64,000 nucleotides of DNA from Halieaceae bacterium (GCA_963669435.1 OY770025.1:3445472-3509471), one strand, 5' to 3'; counted from the first letter of the stretch, positions 15,232-59,526 are shown. Numbers and translations: made by a program. Notes: a model not told the origin generated them from the sequence alone.

Positions 15232-16086
15232 GTGAGTAAAAGTGTGCTGGTGGTGGGTGCTGATAGCGGTATGGGACGGGAATTCGTCGGGAGGTTGCTT
15301 GCCCAGCGGTACAGGGTTATCGCTACTGTGTTTGATGATACTGGCCGTCAGAAATTGGAAGACCGGCACCCCTCGGTAGAGACGGTGGTGCAGCTTGACC
15401 TGGCAGACCCCGACTCCGCTCGAACAAGTATTGGTTCCGTCCTCGATGGCCCTGATCTGGAGCTTTCAGGAGTGATCGTATTTGCCGCCACCCTGTGCCC
15501 CGGTCCGCTTGAAGTCATTTCCCTGGATGATTATCGCAAGTCGCTGGAAGTAAACAATGTGGCCGCGCTGATGCTCTACCAGGTAACCATGCCGGCATTG
15601 AGGAGATCTAAAGGTTGGCTTGCCTTTGTCAGTTCCGAAGCTGGCAAAGTGGCGTTCCCATATATGGGCTTGTATATCAGTTGCAAGCATGCCCTCGAAG
15701 GCTTGTGCGACGTCATGCGCCAGGAAGCGGCAGCGTTTGATGTGGATGTCGTGGTGTTTGAGCCCGGCGCGGTGAAAACCGAGATGCTGAATGAATCCCG
15801 AGACAGGGTACTCCGTCTCCTGGAGTCAATGCATTCAACCATAGGCGAATTGTATGCAGATCGAACCAGGCAGTTTGCAGACTTTGTGCAATCAAATATA
15901 GAAAATGGCATATCCCCGGCGGAAGCTGCAGCGCGCATGATGGAAGAACTCGAGAAGGAGACTCCCGATACCCGGTGCGTGATCGGGCAGGATGCCGAAC
16001 AATTATTGCAGATGCGCCGCGAGTTATCAGACAGAGAGATGGACGAAATGTTTGCGAAAGTCTATGGGTCGGTGAGCTCGGCCTGA
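15232..16086 (+). CDS. SDR family oxidoreductase (284-aa type)
   Basis: GTG start. 'VLVVGADSGMGREF', 'YISCKHALEGL' (YxxxK). Similar architecture to the ORF at 54728. Confidence 0.8.
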   Translation: MSKSVLVVGADSGMGREFVGRLLAQRYRVIATVFDDTGRQKLEDRHPSVETVVQLDLADPDSARTSIGSVLDGPDLELSGVIVFAATLCPGPLEVISLDDYRKSLEVNNVAALMLYQVTMPALRRSKGWLAFVSSEAGKVAFPYMGLYISCKHALEGLCDVMRQEAAAFDVDVVVFEPGAVKTEMLNESRDRVLRLLESMHSTIGELYADRTRQFADFVQSNIENGISPAEAAARMMEELEKETPDTRCVIGQDAEQLLQMRRELSDREMDEMFAKVYGSVSSA

Positions 16087-17282
16087 TTTTCGCTCGCAGA
16101 AGTATTCCGCCAGGAGCCGGGAGATTGACCTGTTATTTGTTTGAAAACGCGACTCAGGTGCGCCTGGTCCGAGAATCCGCAGGATAGCGCGATATCAAAA
16201 AGAATGGCATCGTTCTTTCTAGACATCATCTGTTTCGCTTTCTCTACCCTGAATGCCAGCAGAAACTGGTGCGGCGACTGGCCCACAGTCTGCTTGAAGA
16301 GCCTTGAAAAATGGTAGGTGCTCAAGCCCGCCACCGTTGCAAGATCCTCCAGCAGGATACGGCGCGCGAAGTTCTCTTCGATAAAGTGGAGAACTTCACG
16401 ATACTGGGTGGCAGTAAAGCTGCGGCTGAAAACCTGTTCTTGCTCTGACTCAAGGCCATACTTGTGAATTAGTTTAACCAGGAACACGCGTGCGTAGCAC
16501 TCGTACATAACCTCTGCACCTGGTTTCTGCAGACGAAGTGCGTCCAACATCATGCAACCCGCTGTGGCGATGTCCTCGTCCAGAAATTGTGGCGTGTTCT
16601 GGAGTTGCTCGCTGGTCAGGGAGATGGAAAGTTCCCGGCGCGCAAAGTTCTCAAATTTTGCCGGCTCAAGAGTAACGAGTAAGGTCATAGCCTTGCTGTG
16701 CCAGCGCCAGCCCACGTGCATACCTGCGGGGGTCAGGACTATTTCGTGCCGCTTGAACAGGAAGTCCCGCCGCTCATCGCCTCGCCAATTTTCGACTCTG
16801 TAGGGCTTTGGGTTCAGGTTGATCAAAATATGATGCTGATCATACTTTTGAGGGGGCATCGTTGCGGGCTCCGCCTCAAAATACTCCAGGTTAAGCAGCT
16901 CGGCTGCCGCCGCTCGCGCCTGATTTGAACTGCGAAAGAGCGGGTCAGAAGGAAAGGCATCTTGGTAGGTGCGTCCAACCATATTCCACGACCAAGCTAA
17001 TGAAGTATGTGAAATGACCAGTGCCATTATGCCTGAGCCGGTTTGGACATCAAATGCATAACCCGGGGGCCAATAATTGTGTGTGCAAGGAAAGCTGGGT
17101 GATTCAAAGGTATGAAAGTCGGGAATGCCTGATAATTCCTCAATGGTGGGTGTTGCCGCTTCCGCCCGGCTGAGAACCGGCGCGCGACCTGGTCGCCTGT
17201 AAGCCGACATGATTTGTTTCTTTGTGCTCAGTTTTGCGAACCTGCTAACTGAGTGCGAGGAGGGAGCGAAGGCGGCTCTCAT
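16062..17282 (-). CDS. AraC family transcriptional regulator
   Basis: C-terminal double HTH 'LEDLATVAGLSTYHFSRLFKQTVGQSPHQF...IALSCGFSDQAHLSRVFKQITGQSPGSWR'. GAGGA lies 5 nt upstream of the ATG at 17282. The 3' end overlaps the convergent SDR gene by 25 nt. Confidence 0.8.
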   Translation of the reverse strand: MRAAFAPSSHSVSRFAKLSTKKQIMSAYRRPGRAPVLSRAEAATPTIEELSGIPDFHTFESPSFPCTHNYWPPGYAFDVQTGSGIMALVISHTSLAWSWNMVGRTYQDAFPSDPLFRSSNQARAAAAELLNLEYFEAEPATMPPQKYDQHHILINLNPKPYRVENWRGDERRDFLFKRHEIVLTPAGMHVGWRWHSKAMTLLVTLEPAKFENFARRELSISLTSEQLQNTPQFLDEDIATAGCMMLDALRLQKPGAEVMYECYARVFLVKLIHKYGLESEQEQVFSRSFTATQYREVLHFIEENFARRILLEDLATVAGLSTYHFSRLFKQTVGQSPHQFLLAFRVEKAKQMMSRKNDAILFDIALSCGFSDQAHLSRVFKQITGQSPGSWRNTSASENQAELTDP

Positions 17283-17669: not shown

Positions 17670-20075
17670 ATGAAAAGCAACGTAAGAAATCTGCTCGCGA
17701 TCTCGGTGTCGCTCTGTGCCGCTGCATCTGTAGCAAACGCAGAAACTCAGGCTCTTGAAGAAATTGTCGTCACCGCCCGGAAGGCCGCAGAAAGTCTGCA
17801 GGATGTTCCGGTAACCGTCACCGCTATCAGTGACGAAACCATTGATCAGTTAGGTCTGGATGATGCGTCCGAGCTGACCAATCTGATTCCCAACCTGACT
17901 ATCCAGAAGGGCGGTACCGGCGGGGGCGGTATGATCCGTCTTCGAGGTATCGGGTCCAGCGCGATCAGTAGCGCATTCGATACTGCCGTCGCGTTTAATA
18001 TCGACGGCATCCAGGTCAACAGCAGCAAGTACATGTTCCATAACATGTTCGACCTGGGGCAGATCGAAGTGCTCAAGGGCCCCCAGAGCCTCTACTTCGG
18101 CAAGAGTGCATCCGCGGGCGTGGTGACCCTGCGCTCGAATGACCCGGGCAGCGAGTTTGAAGCCAGCCTGGGCGGTAGCTACGAGTTCGAGGAAGCCGGC
18201 AGCAAGTACGAGGCGGTCATCTCGGGCCCACTCACCGATACCCTCGGCGCGCGCCTGGCCCTGAAGTGGTCAGAAGTGGATGAGATCGCCAGGAACAACG
18301 CCACGCCCGCCAACTGGGGATCCATCGCCGCGGGCGGCCCTCCCTACCTGGGCGCCGATACCCAGGGGCCCCGTAATGACTATCGCGGCGAGGAAAGTCG
18401 CGATATGCGTGCCACGGTGGTCTGGGCGCCGTCAGATCGTCTATTAGTAAACTTCAAGGGACTTTACAGCGAGTACGAGACGGACGGTTACAGTTATATG
18501 CTGGATGTTGCCTGTGTGGGAGATACAGCCCAGGATACCGCGCTGCCCCTGATAGAGGGCTATACCGTACCCTCTGGCCTGGATTGTGATCCCACCGATG
18601 GGGTGGTGCAACTGGGCGATATCCCCGAGATCGAGGGTGCGGGTACGCCGCGGGGCAGGGTGCCCTTTTATGATTCGGAAGTGGCGTCTCTGGGGTTGAC
18701 CATCGATTACAACCTCACCGATGACCTGACGCTGACCTCGGTCACCGGCTGGATCGAGAACGATGTCGAGGCGCTTGATGGCGCCAGCTACGATGTCAAT
18801 GCGTCACCGGGATCCCTGCAGGAAGACACCCGCCGGGAAAACTACTCCCAGGAGTTTCGCCTTAGCCGTAATTCGGGTGGGTTCTTCGATTACACGCTGG
18901 GCGCTTTTTATCAGACTCGCGAGATCGACTTTGTCGCCAATCACACGACAACGAGTCCCGCGATTGTGTTTGGCCCAGATTCAACCGGTTATACCGCCGG
19001 TTACCTGAAGGTGCACGAGACCGAGGCGGATGCGTACTCCCTGTTCTTCAGTACTACCTTCCGGCCCACCGACACGGTTGAGATCACGGCGGGTGCACGC
19101 TACAGCGATGAGGAGCATGAAAATACCATCACCGTACCGAGGGTCCACGAATCCCTCTCAGGATTTGGCCTGTTTTTGCCCTCTGGCTCACGCATTACCG
19201 GCCTGGAGTTTGAGGATGACTCGATTGACCCTGAAGTCAGCGTGAAGTGGCAGGTGGCTGACGAGGTCAACCTGTTTGCGGTGTACAAGTCCGGGTTCAA
19301 GTCGGGTGGTATCGACAATAGTGCGCTGCCGACCCCGGATTTACCGGTCACGGCAGGGGATCTGCTGGTGTTTGATTCCGAAACGGTTGACGGTTTTGAA
19401 GTAGGCATGAAGTCGGACCTGCTGGACCAGACCTTGCGCTTCAATGCGACGGTGTACCTGTACACGTATGAGGACCTGCAGACGCAGGAGTTCGACCTGG
19501 ATGCCTTTAACTTCGTCACGCTGAATGCGGGTGAGGTGGAGTCCAGGGGGGCGGAACTGGAGACGGTATGGCTGACACCCTACGAGGGCCTGGTGTTTGA
19601 CCTTCGCCTTGCCTACAGCGACAGCGAGTATACCGACGACTTTTTTGTGACGGGGGAAACCAACCTGGACCCTGAGACCGGCCTTGAGAACATGAAGGGC
19701 CGGCAGATCCAGGGTAATTCCTATTGGTCGGGCAATGCGAGCCTTAACTATGAGCGGTCGCTGACGTCGCTGCCGATCGATCTGAACCTGGGCCTGTTTG
19801 CCAGTTATCGCAGCAAATTCCAGGCGGGTATTTTCAGCAACTCGCCGGACCAGGGCGACTTCTGGAAGTTTGATGCGACGGTGGGTGTATCCAGTACGGA
19901 TGGTCAATGGGAGTTGGCATTGATTGCCCAGAACCTTGAGGATGAGCGGACGCTGAACTCATCCATTGCGGGGCGTGTGAGCACGGTACCGGAGGCGGAC
20001 ACCGGTTTCAGGGACCAGCTGATCAGTTTCTCTCACGGCCGGCAGGTTACTCTGCAGGCTAAGTGGAACTTCTAG
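17670..20075 (+). CDS. TonB-dependent receptor (TBDR-1, no signalling domain)
   Basis: ATG 17670 gives signal peptide MKSNVRNLLAISVSLCAAASVANA, TonB box 'EEIVVTA', plug, a long barrel and C-terminal '...LQAKWNF'. Confidence 0.9.
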   Translation: MKSNVRNLLAISVSLCAAASVANAETQALEEIVVTARKAAESLQDVPVTVTAISDETIDQLGLDDASELTNLIPNLTIQKGGTGGGGMIRLRGIGSSAISSAFDTAVAFNIDGIQVNSSKYMFHNMFDLGQIEVLKGPQSLYFGKSASAGVVTLRSNDPGSEFEASLGGSYEFEEAGSKYEAVISGPLTDTLGARLALKWSEVDEIARNNATPANWGSIAAGGPPYLGADTQGPRNDYRGEESRDMRATVVWAPSDRLLVNFKGLYSEYETDGYSYMLDVACVGDTAQDTALPLIEGYTVPSGLDCDPTDGVVQLGDIPEIEGAGTPRGRVPFYDSEVASLGLTIDYNLTDDLTLTSVTGWIENDVEALDGASYDVNASPGSLQEDTRRENYSQEFRLSRNSGGFFDYTLGAFYQTREIDFVANHTTTSPAIVFGPDSTGYTAGYLKVHETEADAYSLFFSTTFRPTDTVEITAGARYSDEEHENTITVPRVHESLSGFGLFLPSGSRITGLEFEDDSIDPEVSVKWQVADEVNLFAVYKSGFKSGGIDNSALPTPDLPVTAGDLLVFDSETVDGFEVGMKSDLLDQTLRFNATVYLYTYEDLQTQEFDLDAFNFVTLNAGEVESRGAELETVWLTPYEGLVFDLRLAYSDSEYTDDFFVTGETNLDPETGLENMKGRQIQGNSYWSGNASLNYERSLTSLPIDLNLGLFASYRSKFQAGIFSNSPDQGDFWKFDATVGVSSTDGQWELALIAQNLEDERTLNSSIAGRVSTVPEADTGFRDQLISFSHGRQVTLQAKWNF
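17750..20068 (+). repeat. Direct repeat copy 1 (perfect core 18003..20068)
   Basis: Collinear with 26715..29033 at a constant offset of 8965 nt. Diverged up to 18002, apparently identical thereafter. Confidence 0.9.
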
Positions 20076-20173
20076 GTTCCATCGGGTAGATGGAAGATGT
20101 AGGTGAATGCTGCACACCAAGGCTTTGCCCCAGGCAAGGCCTTTGTTGTATAGGGATGATTTTGTGATGCAAA

Positions 20174-22252
20174 GTGGGTTTCCAGGTGTATAAGCGTATA
20201 GGCATAGCCGCCTGGATTTTGTGCACTATTGTGACTCGGCAAGCCTTGGGAACCGCGCCCGATTTGGGCTGGGCGCAGCATGGACTCGATCACAGCGAGA
20301 CACGGTTTAGCGAAATTGATCAGGTTGATACAAAGACGGTACGCCGCCTCGGCCTGGCCTGGTATAAAGATTTACCGCGCGCTAAAAGCCTCGAGGCAAC
20401 GCCACTACTCATAGACGGGGTGATGTACTTCACCACCAACGACTCGGTCGTCTTCGCTGTCGATGGTCGAACTGGGAGCACGCTTTGGAGCTACGACCCC
20501 GAAGTATGGAAGGTAGCAGGTAAGCGTTATCGGCAGGTATTTCACGTAAATCGGGGTGTCGCACATTGGGACGGGAAAATTTACGTTGGTACCTTTGATG
20601 GGCGGCTGATCGCACTTAACGCAAAAACAGGGAAGCAGGTTTGGTCAGTGCAAACCCTTGAGCAGGGCCGAGTTGGGTACATTACCGGTGCGCCGCGGAC
20701 ATTCAATGGGAAAGTGATCATTGGTCAGGGCGGCACCGAGGCGGGATATGCTCGCGGCTATGTCACCGCCTATGACGCTCAATCTGGCGACCAGGTATGG
20801 CGCTTCTACGTTGTTCCCGGTAACCCGGATGACGGCTTCGAAAATCCGGCCATGGAAATGGCGGCGAAAACCTGGACGGGTGAGTGGTGGAATCACGGCG
20901 GGGGAGGCTCGCCATGGAATGCGCTGACTTTCGATCCCGAACTCAACCGCGTTTATATTGGCACTGGAAACGGCTCGCCCTGGAATCACAAAGTGCGCAG
21001 CCCCGGTGGTGGGGACAACCTGTTCCTTTGTTCCATCGTCGCGGTTGATGCTGATACGGGAGAATATCAGTGGCATTACCAGACGAATCCGGGTGAGACC
21101 TGGGACTACACATCCACCCAGGACATTGTGCTTGCTGATATGGACCTGGACGGTAAGCGCCGACAGGTGATTCTTCATGCCCCCAAGAATGGCTTCTTCT
21201 ACGTCATCGATCGCGTTACGGGAAAATTGCTTTCGGCCGAAAAACTGGGAACCGTGACCTGGGCCGAGCGCATCGACCTGGCGTCGGGGCGCCCCGTTGA
21301 AACTGCTGGTGCACGATTTCCTGAAGGTGACGGCCTGATCTATCCCAGTGGGGCCGGACTGCACAATTGGCACTCCATGTCCTTTAACCCAAACACCGGA
21401 CTGGCCTACCTGCCGAAGCTGGAAATGCCCATGTACTTCAGTGAAAAGACGGTAGATCACCAGAACTGGCGTGCTCGAAAGTACTTTTTCAATACCGGCT
21501 TTGATCTGTTGGAGATGGAGGGGCTGGGGGACCTTGCCCTGGAGGGCTCGTTGCTTGCCTGGAACCCACAGACGCAGAGTCGCGCCTGGGAAGTGCCTCT
21601 GCCGGGAATCTGGAATGGAGGTACATTGAGTACGGCGGGTAACCTGGTGTTTCAAGGCAACGCCGGAGGGGAGTTCGCGGCCTATCATGCAGAAACGGGA
21701 GAGAAGCTCTGGTCGACCGATGTCGGCCTGGGTGTTGTGGCTGCACCCATGACCTATCGCCTTGACGGCACCCAGTATATTGCCCTGCTGGTTGGTTGGG
21801 GTGGCAGTATCCCCAGCATGTTTGGCCTGGGTGTGAACGAATACGGCTGGCAGTACGGAAAACAAGTTCGACGCCTGCTTGTGTACGTCCTGGACGGCAA
21901 TGCAGAACTGGAACTGGCTGGAAAGTCCCCAGTGCCAACACCACTGGATCCCCCCGAGTTTGTCATTGACCAGTCGGTGGTCAAACAGGGTAGCGAACTG
22001 TTCAACTCTACCTGCCAGGCTTGTCATGGCTACTCGGTCGTCGCCGGTGGCATGGCGCCTGATCTTCGCGCCTCTTATATCGCCGCCAATATGGATAGTT
22101 TCGACAAAGTTGTCCGGGAGGGCGCGCTGGAGGCCAGGGGAATGCCGAAGTACGCGGATTTAAACGACGCGGAGGTGAAGCAGCTATACCACTACATTCG
22201 TCATCGGGCCCGGATAGACCTCAAGAAGCGCTCGACAGCGCCTCAACAATAG
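20174..22252 (+). CDS. PQQ-dependent quinohemoprotein alcohol dehydrogenase (type II ADH-like, C-terminal cytochrome c domain)
   Basis: 'GAPRTFNGKVIIGQGGTEAGYARGYVTAYDAQSGDQVWRFY', 'GGGGSPWNALTFDPELNRVYIGTGNGSPWN', 'ETWDYTSTQD', 'APKNGFFYVIDRVTGK', and the C-terminal heme motif 'CQACHG'. The start is uncertain (GTG 20174 or GTG 20186). Confidence 0.85.
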   Translation: MGFQVYKRIGIAAWILCTIVTRQALGTAPDLGWAQHGLDHSETRFSEIDQVDTKTVRRLGLAWYKDLPRAKSLEATPLLIDGVMYFTTNDSVVFAVDGRTGSTLWSYDPEVWKVAGKRYRQVFHVNRGVAHWDGKIYVGTFDGRLIALNAKTGKQVWSVQTLEQGRVGYITGAPRTFNGKVIIGQGGTEAGYARGYVTAYDAQSGDQVWRFYVVPGNPDDGFENPAMEMAAKTWTGEWWNHGGGGSPWNALTFDPELNRVYIGTGNGSPWNHKVRSPGGGDNLFLCSIVAVDADTGEYQWHYQTNPGETWDYTSTQDIVLADMDLDGKRRQVILHAPKNGFFYVIDRVTGKLLSAEKLGTVTWAERIDLASGRPVETAGARFPEGDGLIYPSGAGLHNWHSMSFNPNTGLAYLPKLEMPMYFSEKTVDHQNWRARKYFFNTGFDLLEMEGLGDLALEGSLLAWNPQTQSRAWEVPLPGIWNGGTLSTAGNLVFQGNAGGEFAAYHAETGEKLWSTDVGLGVVAAPMTYRLDGTQYIALLVGWGGSIPSMFGLGVNEYGWQYGKQVRRLLVYVLDGNAELELAGKSPVPTPLDPPEFVIDQSVVKQGSELFNSTCQACHGYSVVAGGMAPDLRASYIAANMDSFDKVVREGALEARGMPKYADLNDAEVKQLYHYIRHRARIDLKKRSTAPQQ

Positions 22253-22259
22253 CCATGGT

Positions 22260-24266
22260 GTGTTGTTTATGACAACGAGATTATTTAGTCAGACTTGCCT
22301 TATGCTGCTTGGCTTACTGGGTTTTTCGCTCGCGCAGGCTGCGCCGTGGAGCTATTTTGGCGGTGATTCGGGGGCGCAGCGCTATGCACCCCATACCCAG
22401 ATCACCGCGGAAAATGCCAAGCACCTCGAGCCTGCCTGGATTGCAAGAACAGGGGAGCAGGAAGAGTTCGGGAAGCTGTATAACTTGTCGAGTTTTCAAA
22501 ATACGCCTGCGTTAATCGGAGACTCACTTATTGCCTGCTCGTCATTTAGTCGAGTGATTGCCTACGACCCCGCTTCCGGAGAGGAGAAATGGCGCTATGA
22601 TCCCTGGGAATCCATAGAGTTTTTCGACCACTTTACCTATCGGTGCCGGGGCCTGGCTTATTGGCAAGGCGAAAAGGACAAGCATGAGATCGAGGGTGAG
22701 GCCCAGGAAACGGCAGACCTCAAAGACCGATGCAATGAGCGTATTTTCCTGGCAACCGCTTCTAATCATGTTATCGCCCTCGATCCAGGCAATGGTCAAA
22801 CCTGTCCAGACTTTGGCGATAACGGAATTGTGTTTATCGATCGTACTGGCGAGCAGGCTTTCCCGGGGGAGGTTTACCTGAATAACCCTGGAACCGTCGT
22901 AGGTGATGTTGTCGTATTTGGCTCGCCGATATTGGATAGCTACAGAGCCGGAGCGCCCACCGGGAAAATCATGGCCTTTGACGTGTACACAGGCGAGTTG
23001 CGCTGGGAGTTCGATCCGATTCCTCGCGACGACTCTGCCTATGCCAGGGAAAACTGGCTGGACGATAGCGCCAGGAGCAGTGGCGGAGCCAACGTATGGT
23101 CCACAATGACCGCCGATGAAGAGCGTGACCTGCTGTTTGTGCCCACGGGTAGTCCGTCCCCCGATTTTTACGGCGCTTTAAGGCCGGGTGATAACCGCGA
23201 TGCCAATTCCCTGGTCGCACTGAAGGGGCAGACGGGAGAAAAGGTGTGGAGCTTCCAGTTCGTCCACCATGACTTATGGGACTACGATGTTGCCTCGCCG
23301 CCTGTGCTGGTTGATCTGCAGCGCAGTGGCAGTACGGTGCCAGCCGTTGTCCAGAATACCAAGCAGGGACTCATCTTTGTGTTCAATAGAGAGACCGGAG
23401 AGCCTCTGTTTGATATTGAGGAGAGGCCAGTTCCACAGTCTGATGTACCGGGTGAATGGACCTCTCCCACCCAACCCTTTCCCGTGAAGCCCGAACCACT
23501 GGTTGAGTTCAGTCTTGGGCCTGGCGACGCCTGGGGGTTCACCTTCTGGGATGAAGGCAAGTGTAGGGAGAAGATCAGTGCTCGCGGTAATAGTGGCATT
23601 TATACTCCCCCGTCGCTCAACGGCACTGTACAAAGGCCCGCATGGATGGGAGGTACCAACTGGGGAGGACCTGCCATAAACCCCCGGACCGGCGTGATGG
23701 TGGTTAACTTCAGCAATGTTATCACCGAGGTGCTACTGGAGCGGCGCACCGGTGACCTCAAGCCCTTACCTGTAATAACCGTAGATGACACAGCCGCCTG
23801 GCGACGGCACGTAGGCGGGGAAATGCTTGGAACGCCTTATCGACTCAAGTTGGATTTTTTGCGTTCACCTTTTGGGGCCCCCTGCAACGCTCCGCCCTGG
23901 GGAGAGTTGGCGGCAGTCGATTTAAACAGCGGGGACATCCTGTGGAAGCGGACGCTGGGAAACCTCGAAGAACTCGCACCGGTTCCGTTGCCACTTGAAC
24001 TGGGCACACCAAATATAGGGGGTCCTCTGGTGACCGAGAGTGGCGTCGTATTCATTGCCGCCACCATGGACAATCGTATCCGGGCCTTTCATCTGGAAAC
24101 TGGCGAAGAAGTGTGGAGCGCCAAGTTGCCCGCTGGCGGGCAGGCTGGAGTGATGAGCTATGCCTGGAAGGGCAAACAGTACGTGGTCATCGGTGCGGGA
24201 GGTCATGCATGGATGGATACCCCAAGGGGAGACTATTACGTAGCCTATGCTCTTCCCGAAAAATGA
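22260..24266 (+). CDS. PQQ-dependent dehydrogenase (glucose/quinate-dehydrogenase-like propeller, secreted, no cytochrome domain)
   Basis: Signal peptide (alternative ATG at 22269: MTTRLFSQTCLMLLGLLGFSLAQA), 'FVHHDLWDYDVASPP', 'GGTNWGG', repeated propeller W-motifs. Only 7 nt after the preceding gene. Confidence 0.8.
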   Translation: MLFMTTRLFSQTCLMLLGLLGFSLAQAAPWSYFGGDSGAQRYAPHTQITAENAKHLEPAWIARTGEQEEFGKLYNLSSFQNTPALIGDSLIACSSFSRVIAYDPASGEEKWRYDPWESIEFFDHFTYRCRGLAYWQGEKDKHEIEGEAQETADLKDRCNERIFLATASNHVIALDPGNGQTCPDFGDNGIVFIDRTGEQAFPGEVYLNNPGTVVGDVVVFGSPILDSYRAGAPTGKIMAFDVYTGELRWEFDPIPRDDSAYARENWLDDSARSSGGANVWSTMTADEERDLLFVPTGSPSPDFYGALRPGDNRDANSLVALKGQTGEKVWSFQFVHHDLWDYDVASPPVLVDLQRSGSTVPAVVQNTKQGLIFVFNRETGEPLFDIEERPVPQSDVPGEWTSPTQPFPVKPEPLVEFSLGPGDAWGFTFWDEGKCREKISARGNSGIYTPPSLNGTVQRPAWMGGTNWGGPAINPRTGVMVVNFSNVITEVLLERRTGDLKPLPVITVDDTAAWRRHVGGEMLGTPYRLKLDFLRSPFGAPCNAPPWGELAAVDLNSGDILWKRTLGNLEELAPVPLPLELGTPNIGGPLVTESGVVFIAATMDNRIRAFHLETGEEVWSAKLPAGGQAGVMSYAWKGKQYVVIGAGGHAWMDTPRGDYYVAYALPEK

Positions 24267-24443
24267 TGACGCGGTGCTCCAGGGATCGGGTTTTATTATT
24301 GGATGTAAACGGACCAGGGGATAGCACCGACCAGGTCCGGGTAATTGGCAAAGATTTACTGCGGTTACATGCAGATTGATTGAAGACTCCAGTGCTTCTC
24401 GCAAGAAGCATAAACTATAAGTATTAAGGGAGTAGTTAAGTAG

Positions 24444-25004
24444 ATGAAGCGAGACACTCGCCAGAATCGACCAGATGCCAGGGATGGTAGTGGCATACAT
24501 GAGGCATTTATGGAGAATATGACAGCGCTCAAGCGATTTCTGTCCAGGCGACTGCCTTGCCACGCGGATGTAGAGGATTTGCTGCACGATACATACTTGA
24601 AAGCGATAAGTGCCGAAAGGAAGGCAAGCATCAATAAGCCAACCCACTTTCTCTACAAGGTCGCAAAGAATGCTGCGATCAATTACAAGGCGCGGGCGCA
24701 CCATCGATTGAGTGAAAGTATTGAAAATTTCGACGAGCTAAATGTACTGATTAATGAGAGAACACATGAATTCACGGCGGACCAGGACAGGCAGTTAAGC
24801 CTATTCTGTGAGGCGGTAGGTCGATTACCCGAAAAGTGTCGCGAGGCATTTGTCCTGAAAAAAGTTTATGGTCTGAGCCATCAGGAGATTAGTCAGCGTA
24901 TGGGAATCGGTATCAGTACAGTCGACAAACATGTCGCCAGGGGGTTGCGCGAATGTCGGACGAGGCTCAGGTCGGCCGGTTACGGCCTGTCCCCTGAAGG
25001 CTGA
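24444..25004 (+). CDS. ECF (FecI-type) RNA polymerase sigma factor
   Basis: Region 2 'EDLLHDTYLKA...FLYKVAKNAAINY', region 4 'LSHQEISQRMGISISTVDKHVARGL'-type HTH. AAGGGAG RBS. Confidence 0.85.
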   Translation: MKRDTRQNRPDARDGSGIHEAFMENMTALKRFLSRRLPCHADVEDLLHDTYLKAISAERKASINKPTHFLYKVAKNAAINYKARAHHRLSESIENFDELNVLINERTHEFTADQDRQLSLFCEAVGRLPEKCREAFVLKKVYGLSHQEISQRMGIGISTVDKHVARGLRECRTRLRSAGYGLSPEG

Positions 25005-25066
25005 ATGGGCGAGATTTTTTTTGGTGTTATCAAGTTAAAGTAATAGTAAATACAGGATTAGACGCA

Positions 25067-26152
25067 ATGACGGTCACGAGACTGGAATCGCAAGTGATTA
25101 TTGAAGAGCAGGCAGCGGAGTGGGTAGCTCGGTTGTTTGATCGAAGGTTAACCGAGTCCGAGGAGGTGGAGTTTGTCGCCTGGCTCGAGCAGGGCGAGCG
25201 TTATCGCCAGGCCTTTGACCAGTTCTGCGAGGTTTATACCAAAAGTGAACAACTGGGAGCGCTCAAAGATGTGCTCCCGCTCGTCGAGCAAGACTCTTCA
25301 ACCCTCACGGAAGGTAATACGCACCAGCATCAGGCCAGGGGTAGCCGCTTTTCTGTGTCTGCTCCACTTGCATTGGCAGCGAGTTTGTTCATCGCTGTCT
25401 GTTTGTCATTCTATCCCTATCTATGGGAAGACTCAGCGCCAAACCCGGCACTTGCCGAGATTCACAGTACCCAGGTCGGGCAATCCAAGACCTTAACGTT
25501 ATCAGACGGGAGCGTAGTTGCCCTCAATACAGATACTGAGATTGCCGTCAGGTTCGGCTCCCAACAGCGATCAATCGAGTTGTTGCAAGGGGAGGCCCAC
25601 TTTGATGTCGCTCATAGCCGTGAACGCCCGTTTATAGTGACCGTAGGAGGGGCGACGGTGCGTGCTGTGGGTACCGCGTTCAATGTGGACTTTTCGAAAG
25701 ATCTTGTCGATGTCACCGTAACGGAAGGTACGGTTGAGGTTAACACTGAGTTGTTCAAGGACATCTCATACCAGGAAAGTCGAGAACTGCTCGAAGAAGA
25801 GGCTGCTGCAGTAGTAACCCAGGTGCTGGTCTCGGCCGGTAGTTCGGTAACTTTTGGGCAGTTAATTGAGTCGGTGCAGCCAATCAAAAGCAGCCAGCTT
25901 GAAAAGAAGTTGTCGTGGCAAGAGGGAGTTTTGGTTTTCAATGGTGATACTTTAGAGCAGGTAGTTGAAATGCTGTCGCGCTATACCACCGTCAAAATTG
26001 TATTCACCGATGAGTCAGTCAAGGATATTCCTATTGGCGGCTATTTCCCGATTGGGGAAATCGACACAATGCTGGCTGCGCTGGAGTCTGGTTTTAAGAT
26101 TAATGTTAATCGCGTCAGTGATGATCTGGTTCTTTTATCTAGCAGCTTGTGA
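25067..26152 (+). CDS. FecR family anti-sigma factor / transmembrane sensor
   Basis: N-terminal 'AAEWVARL' anti-sigma domain, one central hydrophobic helix (LALAASLFIAVCLSFYPYL), and periplasmic FecR domain 'LSDGSVVALNTDTEI...LLQGEAHFDVAH...PFIV'. Confidence 0.85.
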   Translation: MTVTRLESQVIIEEQAAEWVARLFDRRLTESEEVEFVAWLEQGERYRQAFDQFCEVYTKSEQLGALKDVLPLVEQDSSTLTEGNTHQHQARGSRFSVSAPLALAASLFIAVCLSFYPYLWEDSAPNPALAEIHSTQVGQSKTLTLSDGSVVALNTDTEIAVRFGSQQRSIELLQGEAHFDVAHSRERPFIVTVGGATVRAVGTAFNVDFSKDLVDVTVTEGTVEVNTELFKDISYQESRELLEEEAAAVVTQVLVSAGSSVTFGQLIESVQPIKSSQLEKKLSWQEGVLVFNGDTLEQVVEMLSRYTTVKIVFTDESVKDIPIGGYFPIGEIDTMLAALESGFKINVNRVSDDLVLLSSSL

Positions 26153-26271
26153 TGGTCCGCACGGGGTTTGAGGCTTCGCTTGGCGGCAGTAATAGATGCA
26201 CCGGGTAATTCTGCCAGGGTCAGAATCCGCTCGATCCTTGTCTAAAAAAACGATCTTGCTGGCCACGTAGT

Positions 26272-29040
26272 ATGCGGATCGAGTTTTCCAGACCAGTGCT
26301 TGGACTAGTATCGGTTATAGTCATACTACTCTCAGGTCTCCCCGGCGCTCACGCGAGCGAAGCGCCTGTTCTGCACAGCTTCTCTATCCCGCCTCAGGAA
26401 CTTACACGCGCATTGGTGCAATTCGCGCAGCAGTCGAAAACTCACGTGTTGTATCAGTACGACAAATTGGAGAGTTTTCAATCCAATGAATTAATCGGAA
26501 AGCACTCCGTGGAAGCTGGTTTTTTGATACTGCTGCGGGGGACTGATTTGACAGTTACCAATGTGAGCGACGGGGTCTATACGGTGCACTCTCTCCCGGA
26601 ATTGGACACACCGGTTCAAAGGGGCGGCGAGTTCAGTATCGGGGCATTTTTCAGGAACTTGTTTCGTCTTGATGGCGCTAAAGATGAGCCCTTCGTCGCC
26701 ACACCCAGGAGATACCGACTCGAGGAGGTTGTGGTTACAGCCCGCAAGACAACGGAGAGACTGCAGGATGTGCCTGTCACCGTCATCGCCATGGGTGCTG
26801 ACAGAATTGAACCTCTTGATCTCGATGATATCTCCGAGTTATCCAACCTGATTCCCAACCTGACCATCCAGAAGGGCGGTACCGGCGGGGGCGGTATGAT
26901 CCGTCTTCGGGGTATCGGGTCGAGCGCGATCAGTAGTGCGTTCGATACTGCTATCGCCTTTAACTTTGACGGCATCCAGGTCAACAGCAGCAAGTACATG
27001 TTCCATAACATGTTCGACCTGGGGCAGATCGAAGTGCTCAAGGGCCCCCAGAGCCTCTACTTCGGCAAGAGTGCATCCGCGGGCGTGGTGACCCTGCGCT
27101 CGAATGACCCGGGCAGCGAGTTTGAAGCCAGCCTGGGCGGTAGCTACGAGTTCGAGGAAGCCGGCAGCAAGTACGAGGCGGTCATCTCGGGCCCACTCAC
27201 CGATACCCTCGGCGCGCGCCTGGCCCTGAAGTGGTCAGAAGTGGATGAGATCGCCAGGAACAACGCCACGCCCGCCAACTGGGGATCCATCGCCGCGGGC
27301 GGCCCTCCCTACCTGGGCGCCGATACCCAGGGGCCCCGTAATGACTATCGCGGCGAGGAAAGTCGCGATATGCGTGCCACGGTGGTCTGGGCGCCGTCAG
27401 ATCGTCTATTAGTAAACTTCAAGGGACTTTACAGCGAGTACGAGACGGACGGTTACAGTTATATGCTGGATGTTGCCTGTGTGGGAGATACAGCCCAGGA
27501 TACCGCGCTGCCCCTGATAGAGGGCTATACCGTACCCTCTGGCCTGGATTGTGATCCCACCGATGGGGTGGTGCAACTGGGCGATATCCCCGAGATCGAG
27601 GGTGCGGGTACGCCGCGGGGCAGGGTGCCCTTTTATGATTCGGAAGTGGCGTCTCTGGGGTTGACCATCGATTACAACCTCACCGATGACCTGACGCTGA
27701 CCTCGGTCACCGGCTGGATCGAGAACGATGTCGAGGCGCTTGATGGCGCCAGCTACGATGTCAATGCGTCACCGGGATCCCTGCAGGAAGACACCCGCCG
27801 GGAAAACTACTCCCAGGAGTTTCGCCTTAGCCGTAATTCGGGTGGGTTCTTCGATTACACGCTGGGCGCTTTTTATCAGACTCGCGAGATCGACTTTGTC
27901 GCCAATCACACGACAACGAGTCCCGCGATTGTGTTTGGCCCAGATTCAACCGGTTATACCGCCGGTTACCTGAAGGTGCACGAGACCGAGGCGGATGCGT
28001 ACTCCCTGTTCTTCAGTACTACCTTCCGGCCCACCGACACGGTTGAGATCACGGCGGGTGCACGCTACAGCGATGAGGAGCATGAAAATACCATCACCGT
28101 ACCGAGGGTCCACGAATCCCTCTCAGGATTTGGCCTGTTTTTGCCCTCTGGCTCACGCATTACCGGCCTGGAGTTTGAGGATGACTCGATTGACCCTGAA
28201 GTCAGCGTGAAGTGGCAGGTGGCTGACGAGGTCAACCTGTTTGCGGTGTACAAGTCCGGGTTCAAGTCGGGTGGTATCGACAATAGTGCGCTGCCGACCC
28301 CGGATTTACCGGTCACGGCAGGGGATCTGCTGGTGTTTGATTCCGAAACGGTTGACGGTTTTGAAGTAGGCATGAAGTCGGACCTGCTGGACCAGACCTT
28401 GCGCTTCAATGCGACGGTGTACCTGTACACGTATGAGGACCTGCAGACGCAGGAGTTCGACCTGGATGCCTTTAACTTCGTCACGCTGAATGCGGGTGAG
28501 GTGGAGTCCAGGGGGGCGGAACTGGAGACGGTATGGCTGACACCCTACGAGGGCCTGGTGTTTGACCTTCGCCTTGCCTACAGCGACAGCGAGTATACCG
28601 ACGACTTTTTTGTGACGGGGGAAACCAACCTGGACCCTGAGACCGGCCTTGAGAACATGAAGGGCCGGCAGATCCAGGGTAATTCCTATTGGTCGGGCAA
28701 TGCGAGCCTTAACTATGAGCGGTCGCTGACGTCGCTGCCGATCGATCTGAACCTGGGCCTGTTTGCCAGTTATCGCAGCAAATTCCAGGCGGGTATTTTC
28801 AGCAACTCGCCGGACCAGGGCGACTTCTGGAAGTTTGATGCGACGGTGGGTGTATCCAGTACGGATGGTCAATGGGAGTTGGCATTGATTGCCCAGAACC
28901 TTGAGGATGAGCGGACGCTGAACTCATCCATTGCGGGGCGTGTGAGCACGGTACCGGAGGCGGACACCGGTTTCAGGGACCAGCTGATCAGTTTCTCTCA
29001 CGGCCGGCAGGTTACTCTGCAGGCTAAGTGGAATATTTAA
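26272..29040 (+). CDS. TonB-dependent transducer (TBDR-2, with N-terminal STN signalling domain)
   Basis: Signal peptide, then 'FSIPPQELTRALVQFAQQSKTHVLYQYDKLES...' (secretin/TonB N-terminal signalling domain), TonB box 'EEVVVTA', and a plug and barrel identical to TBDR-1. Ends '...LQAKWNI'. Confidence 0.9.
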   Translation: MRIEFSRPVLGLVSVIVILLSGLPGAHASEAPVLHSFSIPPQELTRALVQFAQQSKTHVLYQYDKLESFQSNELIGKHSVEAGFLILLRGTDLTVTNVSDGVYTVHSLPELDTPVQRGGEFSIGAFFRNLFRLDGAKDEPFVATPRRYRLEEVVVTARKTTERLQDVPVTVIAMGADRIEPLDLDDISELSNLIPNLTIQKGGTGGGGMIRLRGIGSSAISSAFDTAIAFNFDGIQVNSSKYMFHNMFDLGQIEVLKGPQSLYFGKSASAGVVTLRSNDPGSEFEASLGGSYEFEEAGSKYEAVISGPLTDTLGARLALKWSEVDEIARNNATPANWGSIAAGGPPYLGADTQGPRNDYRGEESRDMRATVVWAPSDRLLVNFKGLYSEYETDGYSYMLDVACVGDTAQDTALPLIEGYTVPSGLDCDPTDGVVQLGDIPEIEGAGTPRGRVPFYDSEVASLGLTIDYNLTDDLTLTSVTGWIENDVEALDGASYDVNASPGSLQEDTRRENYSQEFRLSRNSGGFFDYTLGAFYQTREIDFVANHTTTSPAIVFGPDSTGYTAGYLKVHETEADAYSLFFSTTFRPTDTVEITAGARYSDEEHENTITVPRVHESLSGFGLFLPSGSRITGLEFEDDSIDPEVSVKWQVADEVNLFAVYKSGFKSGGIDNSALPTPDLPVTAGDLLVFDSETVDGFEVGMKSDLLDQTLRFNATVYLYTYEDLQTQEFDLDAFNFVTLNAGEVESRGAELETVWLTPYEGLVFDLRLAYSDSEYTDDFFVTGETNLDPETGLENMKGRQIQGNSYWSGNASLNYERSLTSLPIDLNLGLFASYRSKFQAGIFSNSPDQGDFWKFDATVGVSSTDGQWELALIAQNLEDERTLNSSIAGRVSTVPEADTGFRDQLISFSHGRQVTLQAKWNI
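26715..29033 (+). repeat. Direct repeat copy 2 (perfect core 26968..29033)
   Basis: See copy 1. ORF-track translations in the coding frame, two other + frames and two - frames are identical to those of copy 1. Confidence 0.9.
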
Positions 29041-29083: not shown

Positions 29084-29569
29084 ATGAATGAACCGTATAT
29101 ATCCAACAACAGTGGACACCTTCTTTCTTTCAAAATAGCCGACAATGAGGTCAAGGACTCCCTGCCGGGAATACATATAGCACCTTGCTTTATCGACCCG
29201 GCCAGCGACTCCTGGGTCGTTTATACCCGATTCGACCCGAATACAACGCTACCGAGTCACTTCCATACAGGTCCGGTTCATGTCTACACGACCTCCGGTT
29301 CCTGGTACTACCTGGAACATCCGACCGATGTGCAGACCGCCGGCTCTTACGTCTATGAGCCCGGTGGAGCTACCCACACCTTTGTCACGGAGGAAGGTGC
29401 AGAGCTGTTTATTGTGGCTCAGGGCGCTAACGTCAACTTCGAGGAAGATGGATCGTTCATCAATATTCAAGACGCTACGATGATTACGCATATGCTGGAA
29501 GAGGCCTGCAAGGCGAATTCCCATGAGATGCCCAAATACGTCAGATCCTCGGGATTTCGCTTAGCTTGA
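29084..29569 (+). CDS. Cupin-fold protein, 2,4'-dihydroxyacetophenone dioxygenase-like
   Basis: 161 aa. 'LPSHFHTGPVHVYTTSGSWYYLEH...YVYEPGGATHTF' shows cupin His-containing motifs. Family call is from memory. Confidence 0.65.
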   Translation: MNEPYISNNSGHLLSFKIADNEVKDSLPGIHIAPCFIDPASDSWVVYTRFDPNTTLPSHFHTGPVHVYTTSGSWYYLEHPTDVQTAGSYVYEPGGATHTFVTEEGAELFIVAQGANVNFEEDGSFINIQDATMITHMLEEACKANSHEMPKYVRSSGFRLA

Positions 29570-44035: not shown

Positions 44036-44308
44036 GTTTGTCGCTCCGCTAGTTAGGTTTACCAAAAGTGTTGCTACCGCCCAGTCGGGTGGCGATGAGA
44101 TTTTTCTGATCGACACTCGATCTAATTGAATTGACGGGAGTTGGTGGCACTCCCCTCAGCGCTTCTCGGCCCCATCTGGTTTTGCACTGATGTAAGTCAA
44201 GAAAATAGGCGATTTTGGCGTCAAAGTACGGGTTGGGGTCACCGCTATCCCCAAACGTCTTTATAGGAGTAACGCGATATTGAAACCTGTAATTCAAGGA
44301 GTACCTCG

Positions 44309-59506: not shown

Positions 59507-59526
59507 AATTTTCTCCCGTTGGGTTT

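What the first reader, a model, noticed from the sequence alone, without database searches (positions are those of the whole stretch)
17750..29033. 2,066-nt apparently perfect direct repeat makes a plain TonB-dependent transporter and a sigma-coupled TonB-dependent transducer identical from mid-plug to the penultimate codon
What the sequence shows:
- TBDR-1 (17670..20075) has a signal peptide directly followed by the TonB box.
- TBDR-2 (26272..29040) carries an extra N-terminal STN signalling domain and sits behind a FecI-type sigma (24444) and a FecR-type anti-sigma (25067).
- The two genes are collinear at a constant offset of 8965 nt from about 17750/26715.
- The first ~250 shared nt are clearly diverged. 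I counted about a dozen mismatches between 17882 and 18002, the last at 18002/26967.
- From 18003 to 20068 every stretch I compared equals 26968 to 29033.
- The ORF-track translations of this part are identical in the coding frame, two other + frames and two - frames.
- Identity ends inside the penultimate codon (aac ttc tag versus aat att taa).

Interpretation:
- An abrupt switch from diverged to identical inside one gene points to recent gene conversion or segmental duplication rather than old paralogy.
- The sensor and the transporter would then have identical barrels and loops, and so identical ligand specificity. This could be a way of keeping a cell-surface-signalling sensor and its bulk transporter matched.
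- The repeats bracket both PQQ dehydrogenases and the sigma/anti-sigma pair. Homologous recombination between them would excise that 8,965-nt unit.
- No IS element or integrase flanks the repeat.
Basis: partly seen in the sequence, partly recalled or inferred. Interest (0 to 1): 0.8.

Follow-up and report, generated by a model that had tools for sequence, protein, structure and literature searches.

The report
Sensor and transporter share one barrel
Two neighbouring outer-membrane transporter genes, one an ordinary importer and one a signalling sensor wired to a sigma factor, carry a 2,066-base stretch that is identical to the letter, most likely because one gene recently overwrote the other by gene conversion, so both should recognise the same (probably non-iron, alcohol-like) substrate.

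Summary
Window 18003-20068 equals 26968-29033 (2,066 nt, no mismatch, offset 8,965).

- **5' edge:** a graded, mosaic zone of homology. dS is about 1.5, then 0.19, then 0.95, then 0.
- **3' edge:** identity ends abruptly 7 nt before the stop codons.
- **TBDR-1 (17670-20075):** a plain TonB-dependent transporter, downstream of and divergent from an AraC-family regulator gene.
- **TBDR-2 (26272-29040):** has a genuine but very divergent N-terminal signalling domain. It follows a complete ECF sigma / FecR pair.
- **Between the repeats:** a type II quinohemoprotein alcohol dehydrogenase and a soluble glucose-dehydrogenase-like PQQ enzyme.
- **Context:** a lipid/alcohol catabolic island, with no Fur box and no mobile-element gene.

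Best explanation: old paralogs (neighbouring paralogs in other genomes are 68-72% identical) whose plug-to-C-terminus part was homogenised very recently by intragenomic gene conversion. The result is a natural counterpart of the engineered PupB-PupA chimera.

The core's GC3 is raised (0.73 against 0.60±0.04). This hints at recurrent conversion, but codon adaptation or foreign origin could also explain it.

No relative above 57% identity exists in any collection searched. The within- versus between-genome test, the direction of transfer and any adaptive "matching" therefore stay untested. An assembly artefact is unlikely but not excluded.

Known mechanism, new configuration; moderate interest.

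The parts
16062..17282 (-). AraC-family regulator gene, divergent from TBDR-1. It is the likely local regulator of TBDR-1; this is an inference.
   Evidence: Pfam HTH_AraC and HTH_18. NCBIfam AraC-type hits.
17670..20075 (+). TBDR-1: plain TonB-dependent transporter of 801 aa. The signal peptide is followed directly by the TonB box (LEEIVVTA). The protein ends ...KWNF.
   Evidence: Pfam Plug and TonB_dep_Rec_b-barrel. Translation. Identical to public protein P0001.
17754..18002 (+). Graded, mosaic homology zone, copy 1 (TonB box to mid-plug). dS is 1.5 at 17754-17879, 0.19 at 17880-17945 and 0.95 at 17946-18002.
18003..20068 (+). Exact repeat, copy 1 (mid-plug to the penultimate codon). GC3 is 0.73.
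20119..20143 (+). Terminator-like G+C-rich hairpin with a T-rich tail, just after TBDR-1. It suggests that TBDR-1 is at least partly a separate transcript from the PQQ genes.
   Evidence: Best hit of the consensus scan, 11 pairs. This is a consensus match only.
20174..22252 (+). Type II quinohemoprotein alcohol dehydrogenase: PQQ propeller plus C-terminal cytochrome c. The WDYT motif points to the Ca2+ type, not the lanthanide type.
   Evidence: TIGR03075 at 554 bits, above its cut-off. PDB 1KV9 (ADH IIB) at E 3e-212. Motif read.
22260..24266 (+). Soluble PQQ dehydrogenase. It resembles the periplasmic domain of membrane glucose/quinate dehydrogenases (HHDLWDYD motif) and has a signal-peptide-like N-terminus.
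   Evidence: PF01011 over its full length, 703 bits. TIGR03074 positions 154-783, below its cut-off.
24337..24346 (+). CCGGGTAATT, 107 nt upstream of the sigma gene. It is a candidate -35 element or operator shared with TBDR-2.
   Evidence: The exact 10-mer occurs only twice in 64 kb, both times in these two intergenic regions.
24444..25004 (+). FecI-type ECF sigma factor.
   Evidence: Pfam Sigma70_r2 and r4_2. NCBIfam FecI-like hits below their cut-offs.
25067..26152 (+). FecR-type anti-sigma/sigma regulator. It has an N-terminal anti-sigma domain with the two conserved Trp residues, a transmembrane helix at residues 95-113, a GT site at residue 202, and FecR and FecR_C periplasmic domains.
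26201..26210 (+). CCGGGTAATT, 71 nt upstream of TBDR-2. This is the second and last copy of the 10-mer.
26272..29040 (+). TBDR-2: TonB-dependent transducer of 922 aa. In order it has a signal peptide, the N-terminal signalling domain, a linker, the TonB box LEEVVVTA, the plug and the barrel. The protein ends ...KWNI.
26368..26592 (+). N-terminal signalling (STN-type) domain of TBDR-2. It is very divergent; the best relative anywhere is 41% identical.
   Evidence: Match to the FecA N-terminus, E 7e-8. In 32 of 33 long hits the match lies at the extreme N-terminus. A profile built around it hits only the signalling domains of FpvA, PupA, PupB, HasR, FoxA, FemA, FecA and CntO in the PDB.
26719..26967 (+). 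Graded, mosaic homology zone, copy 2.
26968..29033 (+). Exact repeat, copy 2.
29084..29569 (+). ChrR-type cupin gene, 44 nt after TBDR-2. It is probably co-transcribed and so a possible target of the sigma factor; this is an inference.
   Evidence: Pfam Cupin_7.

Best explanation
TBDR-1 and TBDR-2 are old paralogs lying 9 kb apart in direct orientation.

**The event.** Very recently, RecA-type non-reciprocal recombination (intragenomic gene conversion) copied one gene over the other, from mid-plug to the end of their homology. TBDR-1 was probably the donor. The two proteins now differ only in three places:
- the N-terminus: signal peptide, presence or absence of the signalling domain, TonB-box region and first half of the plug;
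- two substitutions just upstream of the tract;
- the last residue (F versus I).

**Functional consequence (inferred).**
- TBDR-2 is the cell-surface-signalling sensor. When ligand binds its barrel, its N-terminal domain acts on the FecR-type regulator and releases the ECF sigma factor.
- The sigma factor probably transcribes its own operon and TBDR-2, possibly with the downstream cupin and other genes.
- TBDR-1, next to an AraC-family regulator gene, imports the same ligand without signalling.
- The ligand is probably not an iron chelate but an alcohol- or lipid-like carbon substrate, oxidised in the periplasm by the two PQQ dehydrogenases encoded between the repeats.
- As a by-product, the 2-kb direct repeats make the 8,965-nt unit prone to RecA-dependent deletion or tandem amplification.

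**What is shown.** The repeat, its boundaries, the dS profile, the domain architecture and the genomic context.

**What is inferred.** The direction of transfer, the nature of the ligand, the sigma regulon and any selective value.
For: **The tract and its boundaries.**
- The tract is exact over 2,066 nt, with 0 differences at 491 synonymous sites. It sits next to a zone with dS of 0.2-1.5 in the same reading frame. P is about 1e-53 under uniform divergence.
- The 5' boundary is a mosaic, as expected from several conversion events or from patchy heteroduplex repair.
- The 3' boundary coincides with the end of homology, that is, the end of the gene.

**Baseline and transfer direction.**
- Neighbouring TBDR paralogs in other genomes are 68-72% identical at the DNA level. 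This equals the unconverted zone here.
- The nearest relatives of the barrel are all plain transporters of about 800 aa, 53-57% identical, in SDR/APH/sulfotransferase contexts like this window.
- TBDR-1's unconverted 42-aa segment scores better than TBDR-2's against 99 of 119 family members.
- Only TBDR-1's 5' segment still aligns at the DNA level with L022.

**The signalling module is complete.**
- The signalling domain is confirmed.
- FecR and the sigma factor are complete.

**The assembly.** Both genes are intact and are deposited in a genome with a 4.84-Mb contig.

**Function.**
- The PupBA chimera shows that the barrel sets specificity and the N-terminal domain sets signalling (PMC9249621).
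- No Fur-box-like site is present; the best match is 10 of 19 positions, which is background.
- The surroundings are catabolic.
- PQQ-DH1 matches ADH IIB at E 3e-212.

**Recurrence.** GC3 of the core is 0.73 against 0.60±0.04 elsewhere in the window, and 0.57-0.59 in the 5' parts of the same two genes. This fits GC-biased gene conversion (PMC4450053).
Against: - Only one genome is available. Nothing closer than 57% (TBDR) or 38% (FecR) identity exists in the collections searched. The classical test, paralogs more alike within a genome than orthologs between genomes, could not be run.
- At the 3' end no flanking homology is left to explain how a purely homologous event was resolved.
- The ancestral identity of about 65-70% is low for RecA-dependent exchange.
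- The raw reads are not available, so a small number of true differences between the copies could have been erased by the assembler.
- No experiment links the sigma factor, the ligand or the PQQ enzymes to either transporter.
- The shared 10-mer has no evident common -10 element (read by eye).
Confidence: 0.75

Rival explanations
1. This was a one-off barrel swap by duplication and insertion, with a homologous crossover at the 5' side only and an illegitimate or microhomology join at the 3' side. It replaced the barrel of a more distant transducer with a copy of TBDR-1's barrel. The chimera would then be brand new, and not the product of concerted evolution between two full-length paralogs.
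For: - The 3' boundary is abrupt, 7 nt before the stop codon, with random sequence beyond it.
- Transducer-length members are rare in this TBDR family: 1 of the 119 other listed hits.
- The N-terminal domain, FecR and the sigma factor have no close relatives. The signalling module and the barrel may therefore have different histories.
- In L027, the one other transducer of the family sits near a plain TBDR with an unrelated barrel.
Against: - The 5' side shows 250 nt of genuine, graded and mosaic homology starting exactly at the TonB box. This implies an older paralogous relationship and more than one exchange.
- The raised GC3 of the core suggests a longer history of conversion.
- Homology between paralogs ends at the stop codon in any case, so a tract that runs to the end of homology is also expected under repeated conversion.
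Confidence: 0.14
2. This is an assembly or polishing artefact. Either the genome has one barrel copy that was placed twice, or it has two slightly different copies that were collapsed to one consensus and written out twice.
For: - Perfect identity over 2 kb, ending at the first true mismatch, is what a collapsed repeat node in an assembly graph looks like.
- Reads could not be inspected.
Against: - Each copy is joined in frame to a different, intact and functional-looking 5' gene part, and to different 3' flanks.
- With a single copy, one 5' part would be an orphan fragment. The alternative path would leave an unmaintained 8,965-bp circle.
- The graded 5' homology is biological, not an assembler product.
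- The contig is 4.84 Mb. The repeat was therefore spanned rather than left as a break.
- Long-read errors would create differences between the copies, not remove them.
- At most, a few true SNPs were lost. That would not change the interpretation.
Confidence: 0.08
3. These are ordinary paralogs, with the barrel kept identical by very strong purifying selection or codon bias and without any recombination.
For: The family is conserved at the protein level. The Gly-rich plug motif is also nearly identical in the zone outside the exact tract.
Against: - There are no differences at 491 synonymous sites, next to dS of 0.95-1.5.
- The closest homologs elsewhere are only 53-57% identical.
- Selection on protein sequence cannot freeze synonymous sites.
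Confidence: 0.01

Closest known systems
Engineered PupB-PupA chimeric receptors of Pseudomonas putida/capeferrum (Koster et al. 1994, as reviewed in PMC9249621)
   Same: - The N-terminal signalling region of one TonB-dependent receptor is joined to the plug and barrel of another.
- The chimera transported and signalled in response to the ligand of the barrel donor. This is the behaviour inferred here for TBDR-2.
   Different: - The Pup chimera was built in the laboratory, between two ferric-siderophore receptors, and was joined at residue 86.
- The case here arose naturally. The junction is in mid-plug, the barrel donor remains next door as a working gene, and the system is probably not iron-related.
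Intragenomic gene conversion and concerted evolution of outer-membrane-protein paralogs, e.g. Helicobacter pylori babA/babB/babC chimeras (PMC4552749; Pride & Blaser 2002 cited there) and tufA/tufB in Salmonella (own knowledge)
   Same: - Non-reciprocal homologous recombination between paralogs in one genome.
- It gives chimeric genes with identical 3' parts and distinct 5' parts.
- It re-assorts regulatory or functional N-terminal features with the body of the protein.
   Different: - The bab exchanges serve antigenic, adhesin and phase variation between dispersed loci.
- Here the partners are a signalling and a non-signalling TonB-dependent transporter 9 kb apart, in direct orientation.
- The outcome is shared ligand specificity rather than variation.
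FecA/FecR/FecI-type cell-surface signalling (also Fpv, Fox, Fiu, Has and Pup systems)
   Same: - The parts list is the same: a transducer with an N-terminal signalling domain ahead of the TonB box, a FecR-type regulator with the conserved Trp residues, a transmembrane helix and a GT site, and an ECF sigma factor.
- The gene order is sigma, regulator, transducer.
   Different: - There is no Fur box, and the surroundings are catabolic rather than iron-related.
- The signalling domain is at most 41% identical to any other in 1.8 billion representatives.
- The barrel belongs to a family of mostly non-signalling transporters found in lipid/alcohol catabolic clusters.
- A second, non-signalling copy of the same barrel sits alongside.
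Sensor/bulk-transporter pairs for one ligand, e.g. HasR (sensor) and PhuR (main heme importer), or FpvA and FpvB, in Pseudomonas aeruginosa (own knowledge)
   Same: One transducer and one non-signalling receptor serve the same ligand class in one cell.
   Different: - In those pairs the barrels are distantly related and the genes are unlinked.
- No sequence homogenisation is involved.

Membership tests
TonB-dependent transducer / cell-surface signalling system (FecIRA type) | An N-terminal signalling domain of about 80 aa (STN fold) between the signal peptide and the TonB box. | tested here: met
   - Match to the FecA N-terminus, E 7e-8.
- 215 phmmer hits; in 32 of 33 long ones the match is at the extreme N-terminus.
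- A profile hits only known signalling domains in the PDB, E down to 3e-21.
- Pfam STN alone is sub-threshold, E 0.013.
- The single-sequence AlphaFold model was uninformative, pLDDT 38.
TonB-dependent transducer / cell-surface signalling system (FecIRA type) | TonB box, plug and beta-barrel. | tested here: met
   Pfam Plug and TonB_dep_Rec_b-barrel in both genes. The TonB boxes LEEIVVTA and LEEVVVTA were read.
TonB-dependent transducer / cell-surface signalling system (FecIRA type) | An adjacent FecR-type regulator (cytoplasmic anti-sigma domain, one transmembrane helix, periplasmic FecR domains) and a FecI-type ECF sigma factor. | tested here: met
   - DUF4880, FecR and FecR_C domains; sigma regions 2 and 4.
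- FecR equivalog hit at E 5e-33, below its cut-off.
- Conserved Trp residues, transmembrane helix at 95-113 and GT at 202.
TonB-dependent transducer / cell-surface signalling system (FecIRA type) | Ligand- and TonB-dependent activation of the sigma factor. | not testable with these tools
   Needs reporter or RNA-seq experiments.
Iron-carrier cell-surface signalling specifically | Fur-controlled promoter and an iron-uptake gene context. | tested here: not met
   - No Fur-box-like site better than 10 of 19 positions in the four intergenic regions, which is background level. The E. coli consensus was used.
- The neighbours are PQQ dehydrogenases, SDRs, oxygenases and CoA enzymes.
Intragenomic gene conversion between paralogs | An abrupt change from diverged to identical sequence within an otherwise collinear pair, beyond what uniform divergence allows. 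| tested here: met
   dS of 1.5, 0.19 and 0.95 in the 5' zone against 0 over 688 codons. P is about 1e-53.
Intragenomic gene conversion between paralogs | Paralogs within a genome are more alike than orthologs between related genomes. | not testable with these tools
   No relative above 57% identity was found in 5.8 billion proteins, the GTDB species genomes or the metagenomes.
Intragenomic gene conversion between paralogs | No mobile element accounts for the duplication. | tested here: met
   No transposase or integrase domain in any ORF of 110 aa or more in the window. There are no other long repeats.
Lanthanide-dependent PQQ dehydrogenase / lanthanophore uptake cluster (considered) | An additional Asp two residues after the catalytic Asp (DxD) in a XoxF/PedH-type enzyme. 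| tested here: not met
   - PQQ-DH1 has WDYT and is closest to the Ca2+-type ADH IIB, PDB 1KV9.
- PQQ-DH2 belongs to the glucose-dehydrogenase-like clade, whose HHDLWDYD motif is not the lanthanide signature. The meaning of the signature is from my own knowledge.

The most novel reading that the evidence does not exclude
The pair is not a frozen accident but a maintained arrangement. Recurrent, GC-biased gene conversion would keep the ligand-binding barrel of a non-iron cell-surface-signalling sensor identical to that of its neighbouring bulk transporter, so that sensing and uptake specificity co-evolve as one unit. The N-terminal regions would be protected from homogenisation by their different functions. 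The same 2-kb direct repeats would give the cell a reversible way to amplify or drop the dehydrogenase/sigma cassette.
Probability: 0.2. Interest if true: 0.65.

Novelty: new variant of a known kind. Interest (0 to 1): 0.4.

Why it matters
If the repeat is real, this is a natural version of the classic domain-swap experiment that defined cell-surface signalling. The same plug-and-barrel body is present once with and once without a signalling domain in one cell.

**What it offers experimentally.**
- A clean system to ask what a signalling domain adds to an otherwise identical transporter.
- A way to ask whether a dedicated sensor plus a bulk importer is advantageous.
- A way to study cell-surface signalling for a non-iron, probably alcohol- or lipid-like substrate in marine-type Gammaproteobacteria, where such sigma/FecR/transducer cassettes are common but uncharacterised.

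**What it shows about evolution.** Gene conversion can rewire the input specificity of a signalling pathway in a single step.

**Practical point.** The 2-kb direct repeats predict spontaneous deletion or amplification of the PQQ-dehydrogenase/sigma cassette. Anyone cultivating or engineering the strain should expect this.

Tried and rejected
**Orthologous loci for a within- versus between-genome test**
- The genome-contig scan with the barrel gave at best 37% identity.
- The 5.8-billion-protein search gave at best 57% apart from the genome's own two proteins.
- FecR gave at best 38%.
- The N-terminal domain gave nothing in the word-indexed search and at most 41% identity in the full HMMER scan.
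- An exact 38-mer scan of the metagenomes gave 0 hits.
- The test was therefore impossible.

**Source genome**
- There was no match in the plasmid collection.

**Structure of the N-terminal extension**
- The single-sequence AlphaFold model failed, pLDDT 38.
- I replaced it with a profile search of PDB sequences.

**Lanthanide idea**
- I considered a TBDR next to XoxF-like enzymes acting as a lanthanophore receptor and a sigma-based lanthanide switch.
- I rejected it because the lanthanide Asp signature is absent.

**Iron control:** no Fur box was found.

**Shared ECF promoter**
- Only a shared 10-mer was found.
- No convincing common -10 element was seen, and there is no copy upstream of TBDR-1 or the PQQ genes.

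**The one other transducer of the family (P0064, locus L027)**
- The locus has the same architecture, but the two barrels are unrelated.
- Barrel sharing is therefore not a general feature of that architecture.

**Literature:** searches for gene conversion involving TonB-dependent receptor paralogs found no comparable case.
Full report
**1. The observation**

Window 18003-20068 is identical to 26968-29033, a run of 2,066 nt with no mismatch. It is the only long direct repeat in the window.

Upstream, the two genes stay collinear back to 17754/26719, with falling identity:

| Segment | Identity or mismatches |
|---|---|
| 50-nt windows starting at 17750, 17800, 17850 | 64%, 70%, 78% |
| 17880-18002 | 12 mismatches, the last at 18002 |
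| Upstream of 17750 | random, about 28% |

Downstream, identity stops at 20068, within AAC TTC TAG versus AAT ATT TAA. Beyond that the sequences are unrelated.

Measured codon by codon:

| Segment | dS | dN |
|---|---|---|
| 17754-17879 | about 1.5 (saturated) | 0.23 |
| 17880-17945 | 0.19 | 0 |
| 17946-18002 | 0.95 | 0.05 |
| 18003-20066 | 0 (0 of 491 synonymous sites) | 0 |

With 55 mismatches in 2,322 aligned positions, a clean window of 2,066 nt has a probability of about 1e-53 under uniform divergence.

**2. What the genes are**

*TBDR-1* (ATG 17670, 801 aa) has a signal peptide ending ANA|E, followed at once by the TonB box LEEIVVTA, then a plug and a barrel.

*TBDR-2* (26272-29040, 922 aa) has about 120 extra residues between its signal peptide and its TonB box LEEVVVTA. 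Pfam's STN model misses its threshold on this extension (E 0.013). Three other lines show that it is a real signalling domain:
- It aligns to residues 22-120 of the FecA equivalog model at E 7e-8.
- A full HMMER scan of 1.8 billion representatives gives 215 hits. In 32 of the 33 long hits the match sits at the extreme N-terminus.
- A profile built around it retrieves from the PDB only the N-terminal signalling domains of FpvA, PupA, PupB, HasR, FoxA, FemA, FecA and CntO, with E down to 3e-21.

The domain is unusually divergent. Its best relative is 41% identical.

*The sigma/anti-sigma pair* lies directly upstream:
- An ECF sigma factor with regions 2 and 4 (24444-25004).
- A complete FecR-type regulator (25067-26152). 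It has DUF4880, FecR and FecR_C domains, the two conserved N-terminal Trp residues, a transmembrane helix at residues 95-113 and a GT site at residue 202.

*Between the repeats* lie two PQQ enzymes:
- A type II quinohemoprotein alcohol dehydrogenase. It scores above the cut-off of TIGR03075, matches PDB 1KV9 (ADH IIB) at E 3e-212, and has a C-terminal cytochrome c domain.
- A soluble PQQ dehydrogenase of the glucose/quinate-dehydrogenase type.

*Flanking features:*
- An AraC-family regulator gene lies divergent from TBDR-1.
- A strong terminator-like hairpin follows TBDR-1 at 20119-20143.

**3. Context**

The window is a catabolic island. It encodes many SDRs, APH-type kinases, a sulfotransferase, luciferase-like monooxygenases, Rieske oxygenases, CoA-transferase and hydratase enzymes, a 2-oxoacid dehydrogenase, a B12-dependent mutase, a wax-ester synthase, a patatin-like lipase, an esterase and an acyl-CoA synthetase.

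- No transposase or integrase domain occurs in any ORF of 110 aa or more.
- The nearest relatives of the shared barrel (53-57% identical) are plain transporters of about 800 aa. They lie next to the same kinds of genes: SDR, APH, DUF7064, sulfotransferase, TetR and AraC.
- No Fur-box-like site is present; the best match is 10 of 19 positions, which is background.
- PQQ-DH1 has WDYT rather than the lanthanide DxD signature.

The ligand is therefore probably an organic, alcohol- or lipid-like substrate rather than an iron or lanthanide chelate. This is an inference.

Sigma-FecR-transducer cassettes next to non-iron genes are common in related marine Gammaproteobacteria.

**4. Origin of the repeat**

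A simple segmental or tandem duplication does not fit. Only 2.3 kb of the 8,965-nt period is repeated, and the 5' 250 nt are old.

Ordinary paralogy is excluded by dS = 0 next to dS of 1-1.5.

Neighbouring TBDR paralogs in other genomes of this family are 68-72% identical at the DNA level. This matches the unconverted zone here and gives the expected state without conversion.

The best explanation is recent non-reciprocal homologous recombination (gene conversion) between old paralogs.
- The non-monotonic 5' mosaic (1.5, 0.19, 0.95, 0) suggests more than one event or patchy heteroduplex repair.
- The tract runs to the end of homology at the 3' side.

The converted core has GC3 = 0.73. Three comparisons make this stand out:
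- Twenty-two other ORFs in the window average 0.60±0.04, with a maximum of 0.68.
- The 5' parts of the same two genes are at 0.57-0.59.
- Homologous TBDR genes in L022, L023 and L027 are not raised above their neighbours.

This is what GC-biased gene conversion would produce (PMC4450053), and it hints at a history of repeated conversion. Codon adaptation or a foreign origin of the barrel are alternative explanations, so I treat it as suggestive only.

*Direction of transfer.* TBDR-1's unconverted segment is closer to the family than TBDR-2's in 99 of 119 comparisons. It is also the only one still aligning at the DNA level with L022. TBDR-1 keeps the canonical C-terminal Phe, whereas TBDR-2 ends in Ile. 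I therefore favour TBDR-1 as donor, at roughly 2:1.

**5. Rival explanations**

- *One-off barrel replacement.* A single event with an illegitimate 3' join remains possible. It is supported by the sharp 3' edge and by the rarity of transducers in this family (1 of the 119 other listed hits). It is a variant of the same idea.
- *Assembly artefact.* I cannot exclude this without reads, but it is unlikely.
  - Both copies are fused in frame to different intact 5' parts and to different flanks.
  - The graded 5' homology is biological.
  - The deposited contig is 4.84 Mb, so the repeat was spanned.
  - At worst, a few true SNPs between the copies were collapsed.

**6. How it probably works**

Koster's PupBA chimera (reviewed in PMC9249621) established that the barrel sets transport and induction specificity, and that the N-terminal domain passes the signal to the regulator. 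By that logic:
- TBDR-2 should sense exactly what TBDR-1 imports.
- It should signal through FecR to the ECF sigma factor.

A 10-mer, CCGGGTAATT, occurs exactly twice in 64 kb. One copy is 107 nt upstream of the sigma gene and the other 71 nt upstream of TBDR-2. It is a candidate shared promoter or operator element. It is absent upstream of TBDR-1 and the PQQ genes, which more probably depend on the AraC-family regulator.

Whether the match between sensor and importer is selected or accidental cannot be decided from one genome.

The 2-kb direct repeats must also make the 8,965-nt cassette unstable through RecA-dependent deletion or amplification. This follows from established knowledge and was not measured.

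**7. Comparison with what is known, and verdict**

- Gene conversion between outer-membrane-protein paralogs is well known, for example the H. pylori bab chimeras (PMC4552749).
- Cell-surface signalling is well known, and sensor/importer pairs exist (HasR/PhuR, from my own knowledge).
- I found no described case in which a transducer and a neighbouring plain transporter share one barrel through conversion.
- In the only other transducer locus of this family (L027), the architecture is the same but the barrels are unrelated.

I classify the finding as a new variant of known kinds: real, neatly documented and experimentally attractive, but mechanistically unsurprising. Interest is 0.4.

Noticed in passing
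window 18003-20066 (and 26968-29031): - GC3 of the converted core is 0.73, with peaks of 0.85 just inside the 5' boundary.
- Twenty-two other ORFs in the window average 0.60±0.04, and the unconverted 5' parts of the same genes are at 0.57-0.59.
- This may be a footprint of GC-biased gene conversion.
   Followed up: partly
window 24337-24346 and 26201-26210: - The 10-mer CCGGGTAATT occurs exactly twice in the window.
- Both copies are intergenic, upstream of the ECF sigma gene and of TBDR-2.
- No clear shared -10 element follows.
- It is absent upstream of TBDR-1 and the PQQ genes.
   Followed up: partly
L027 2095-12787 (Logan SRR30309651 contig): - The only other transducer-length member of the family (P0064, 35% identical) sits in the same architecture: plain TBDR, then enzymes and an MFS transporter, then sigma, FecR and the transducer.
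- The two barrels are unrelated.
- The two genes do share a 195-nt, 77%-identical leader and signal-peptide segment (2152-2346 and 9950-10144). This may be a duplicated promoter and leader.
   Followed up: partly
window 29029-29040 versus 20064-20075: TBDR-2 ends ...KWNI and so lacks the C-terminal aromatic residue typical of outer-membrane beta-barrels. TBDR-1 ends ...KWNF. This could lower the insertion efficiency of the sensor copy.
   Followed up: no
window 40436-40822 and 42809-43195: A 387-nt inverted repeat, 72% complementary. It corresponds to two oppositely oriented Rieske ring-hydroxylating oxygenase alpha-subunit paralogs (39590-41005 on the + strand, 42626-44116 on the - strand).
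   Followed up: partly
window 50393-50941 (+), 51592-52146 (-), 57194-59542 (-): - Two further ECF-type sigma genes.
- A third TonB-dependent receptor gene, only 25% identical to TBDR-1, inside a lipid-metabolism cluster (wax-ester synthase, patatin, esterase, acyl-CoA synthetase).
   Followed up: partly
L028 4331-14398 (Pseudoteredinibacter isoporae-like contig): Two consecutive sigma-FecR-transducer cassettes lie next to glycoside hydrolase, PI-PLC and PhoX genes. This is another example of apparently non-iron cell-surface signalling in this bacterial group.
   Followed up: no
window 26272-26718: The signalling domain of TBDR-2 is exceptionally divergent. It has no word-sharing relative in 5.8 billion proteins, and its best match among 1.8 billion representatives is 41% identical (E 4e-10).
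   Followed up: yes
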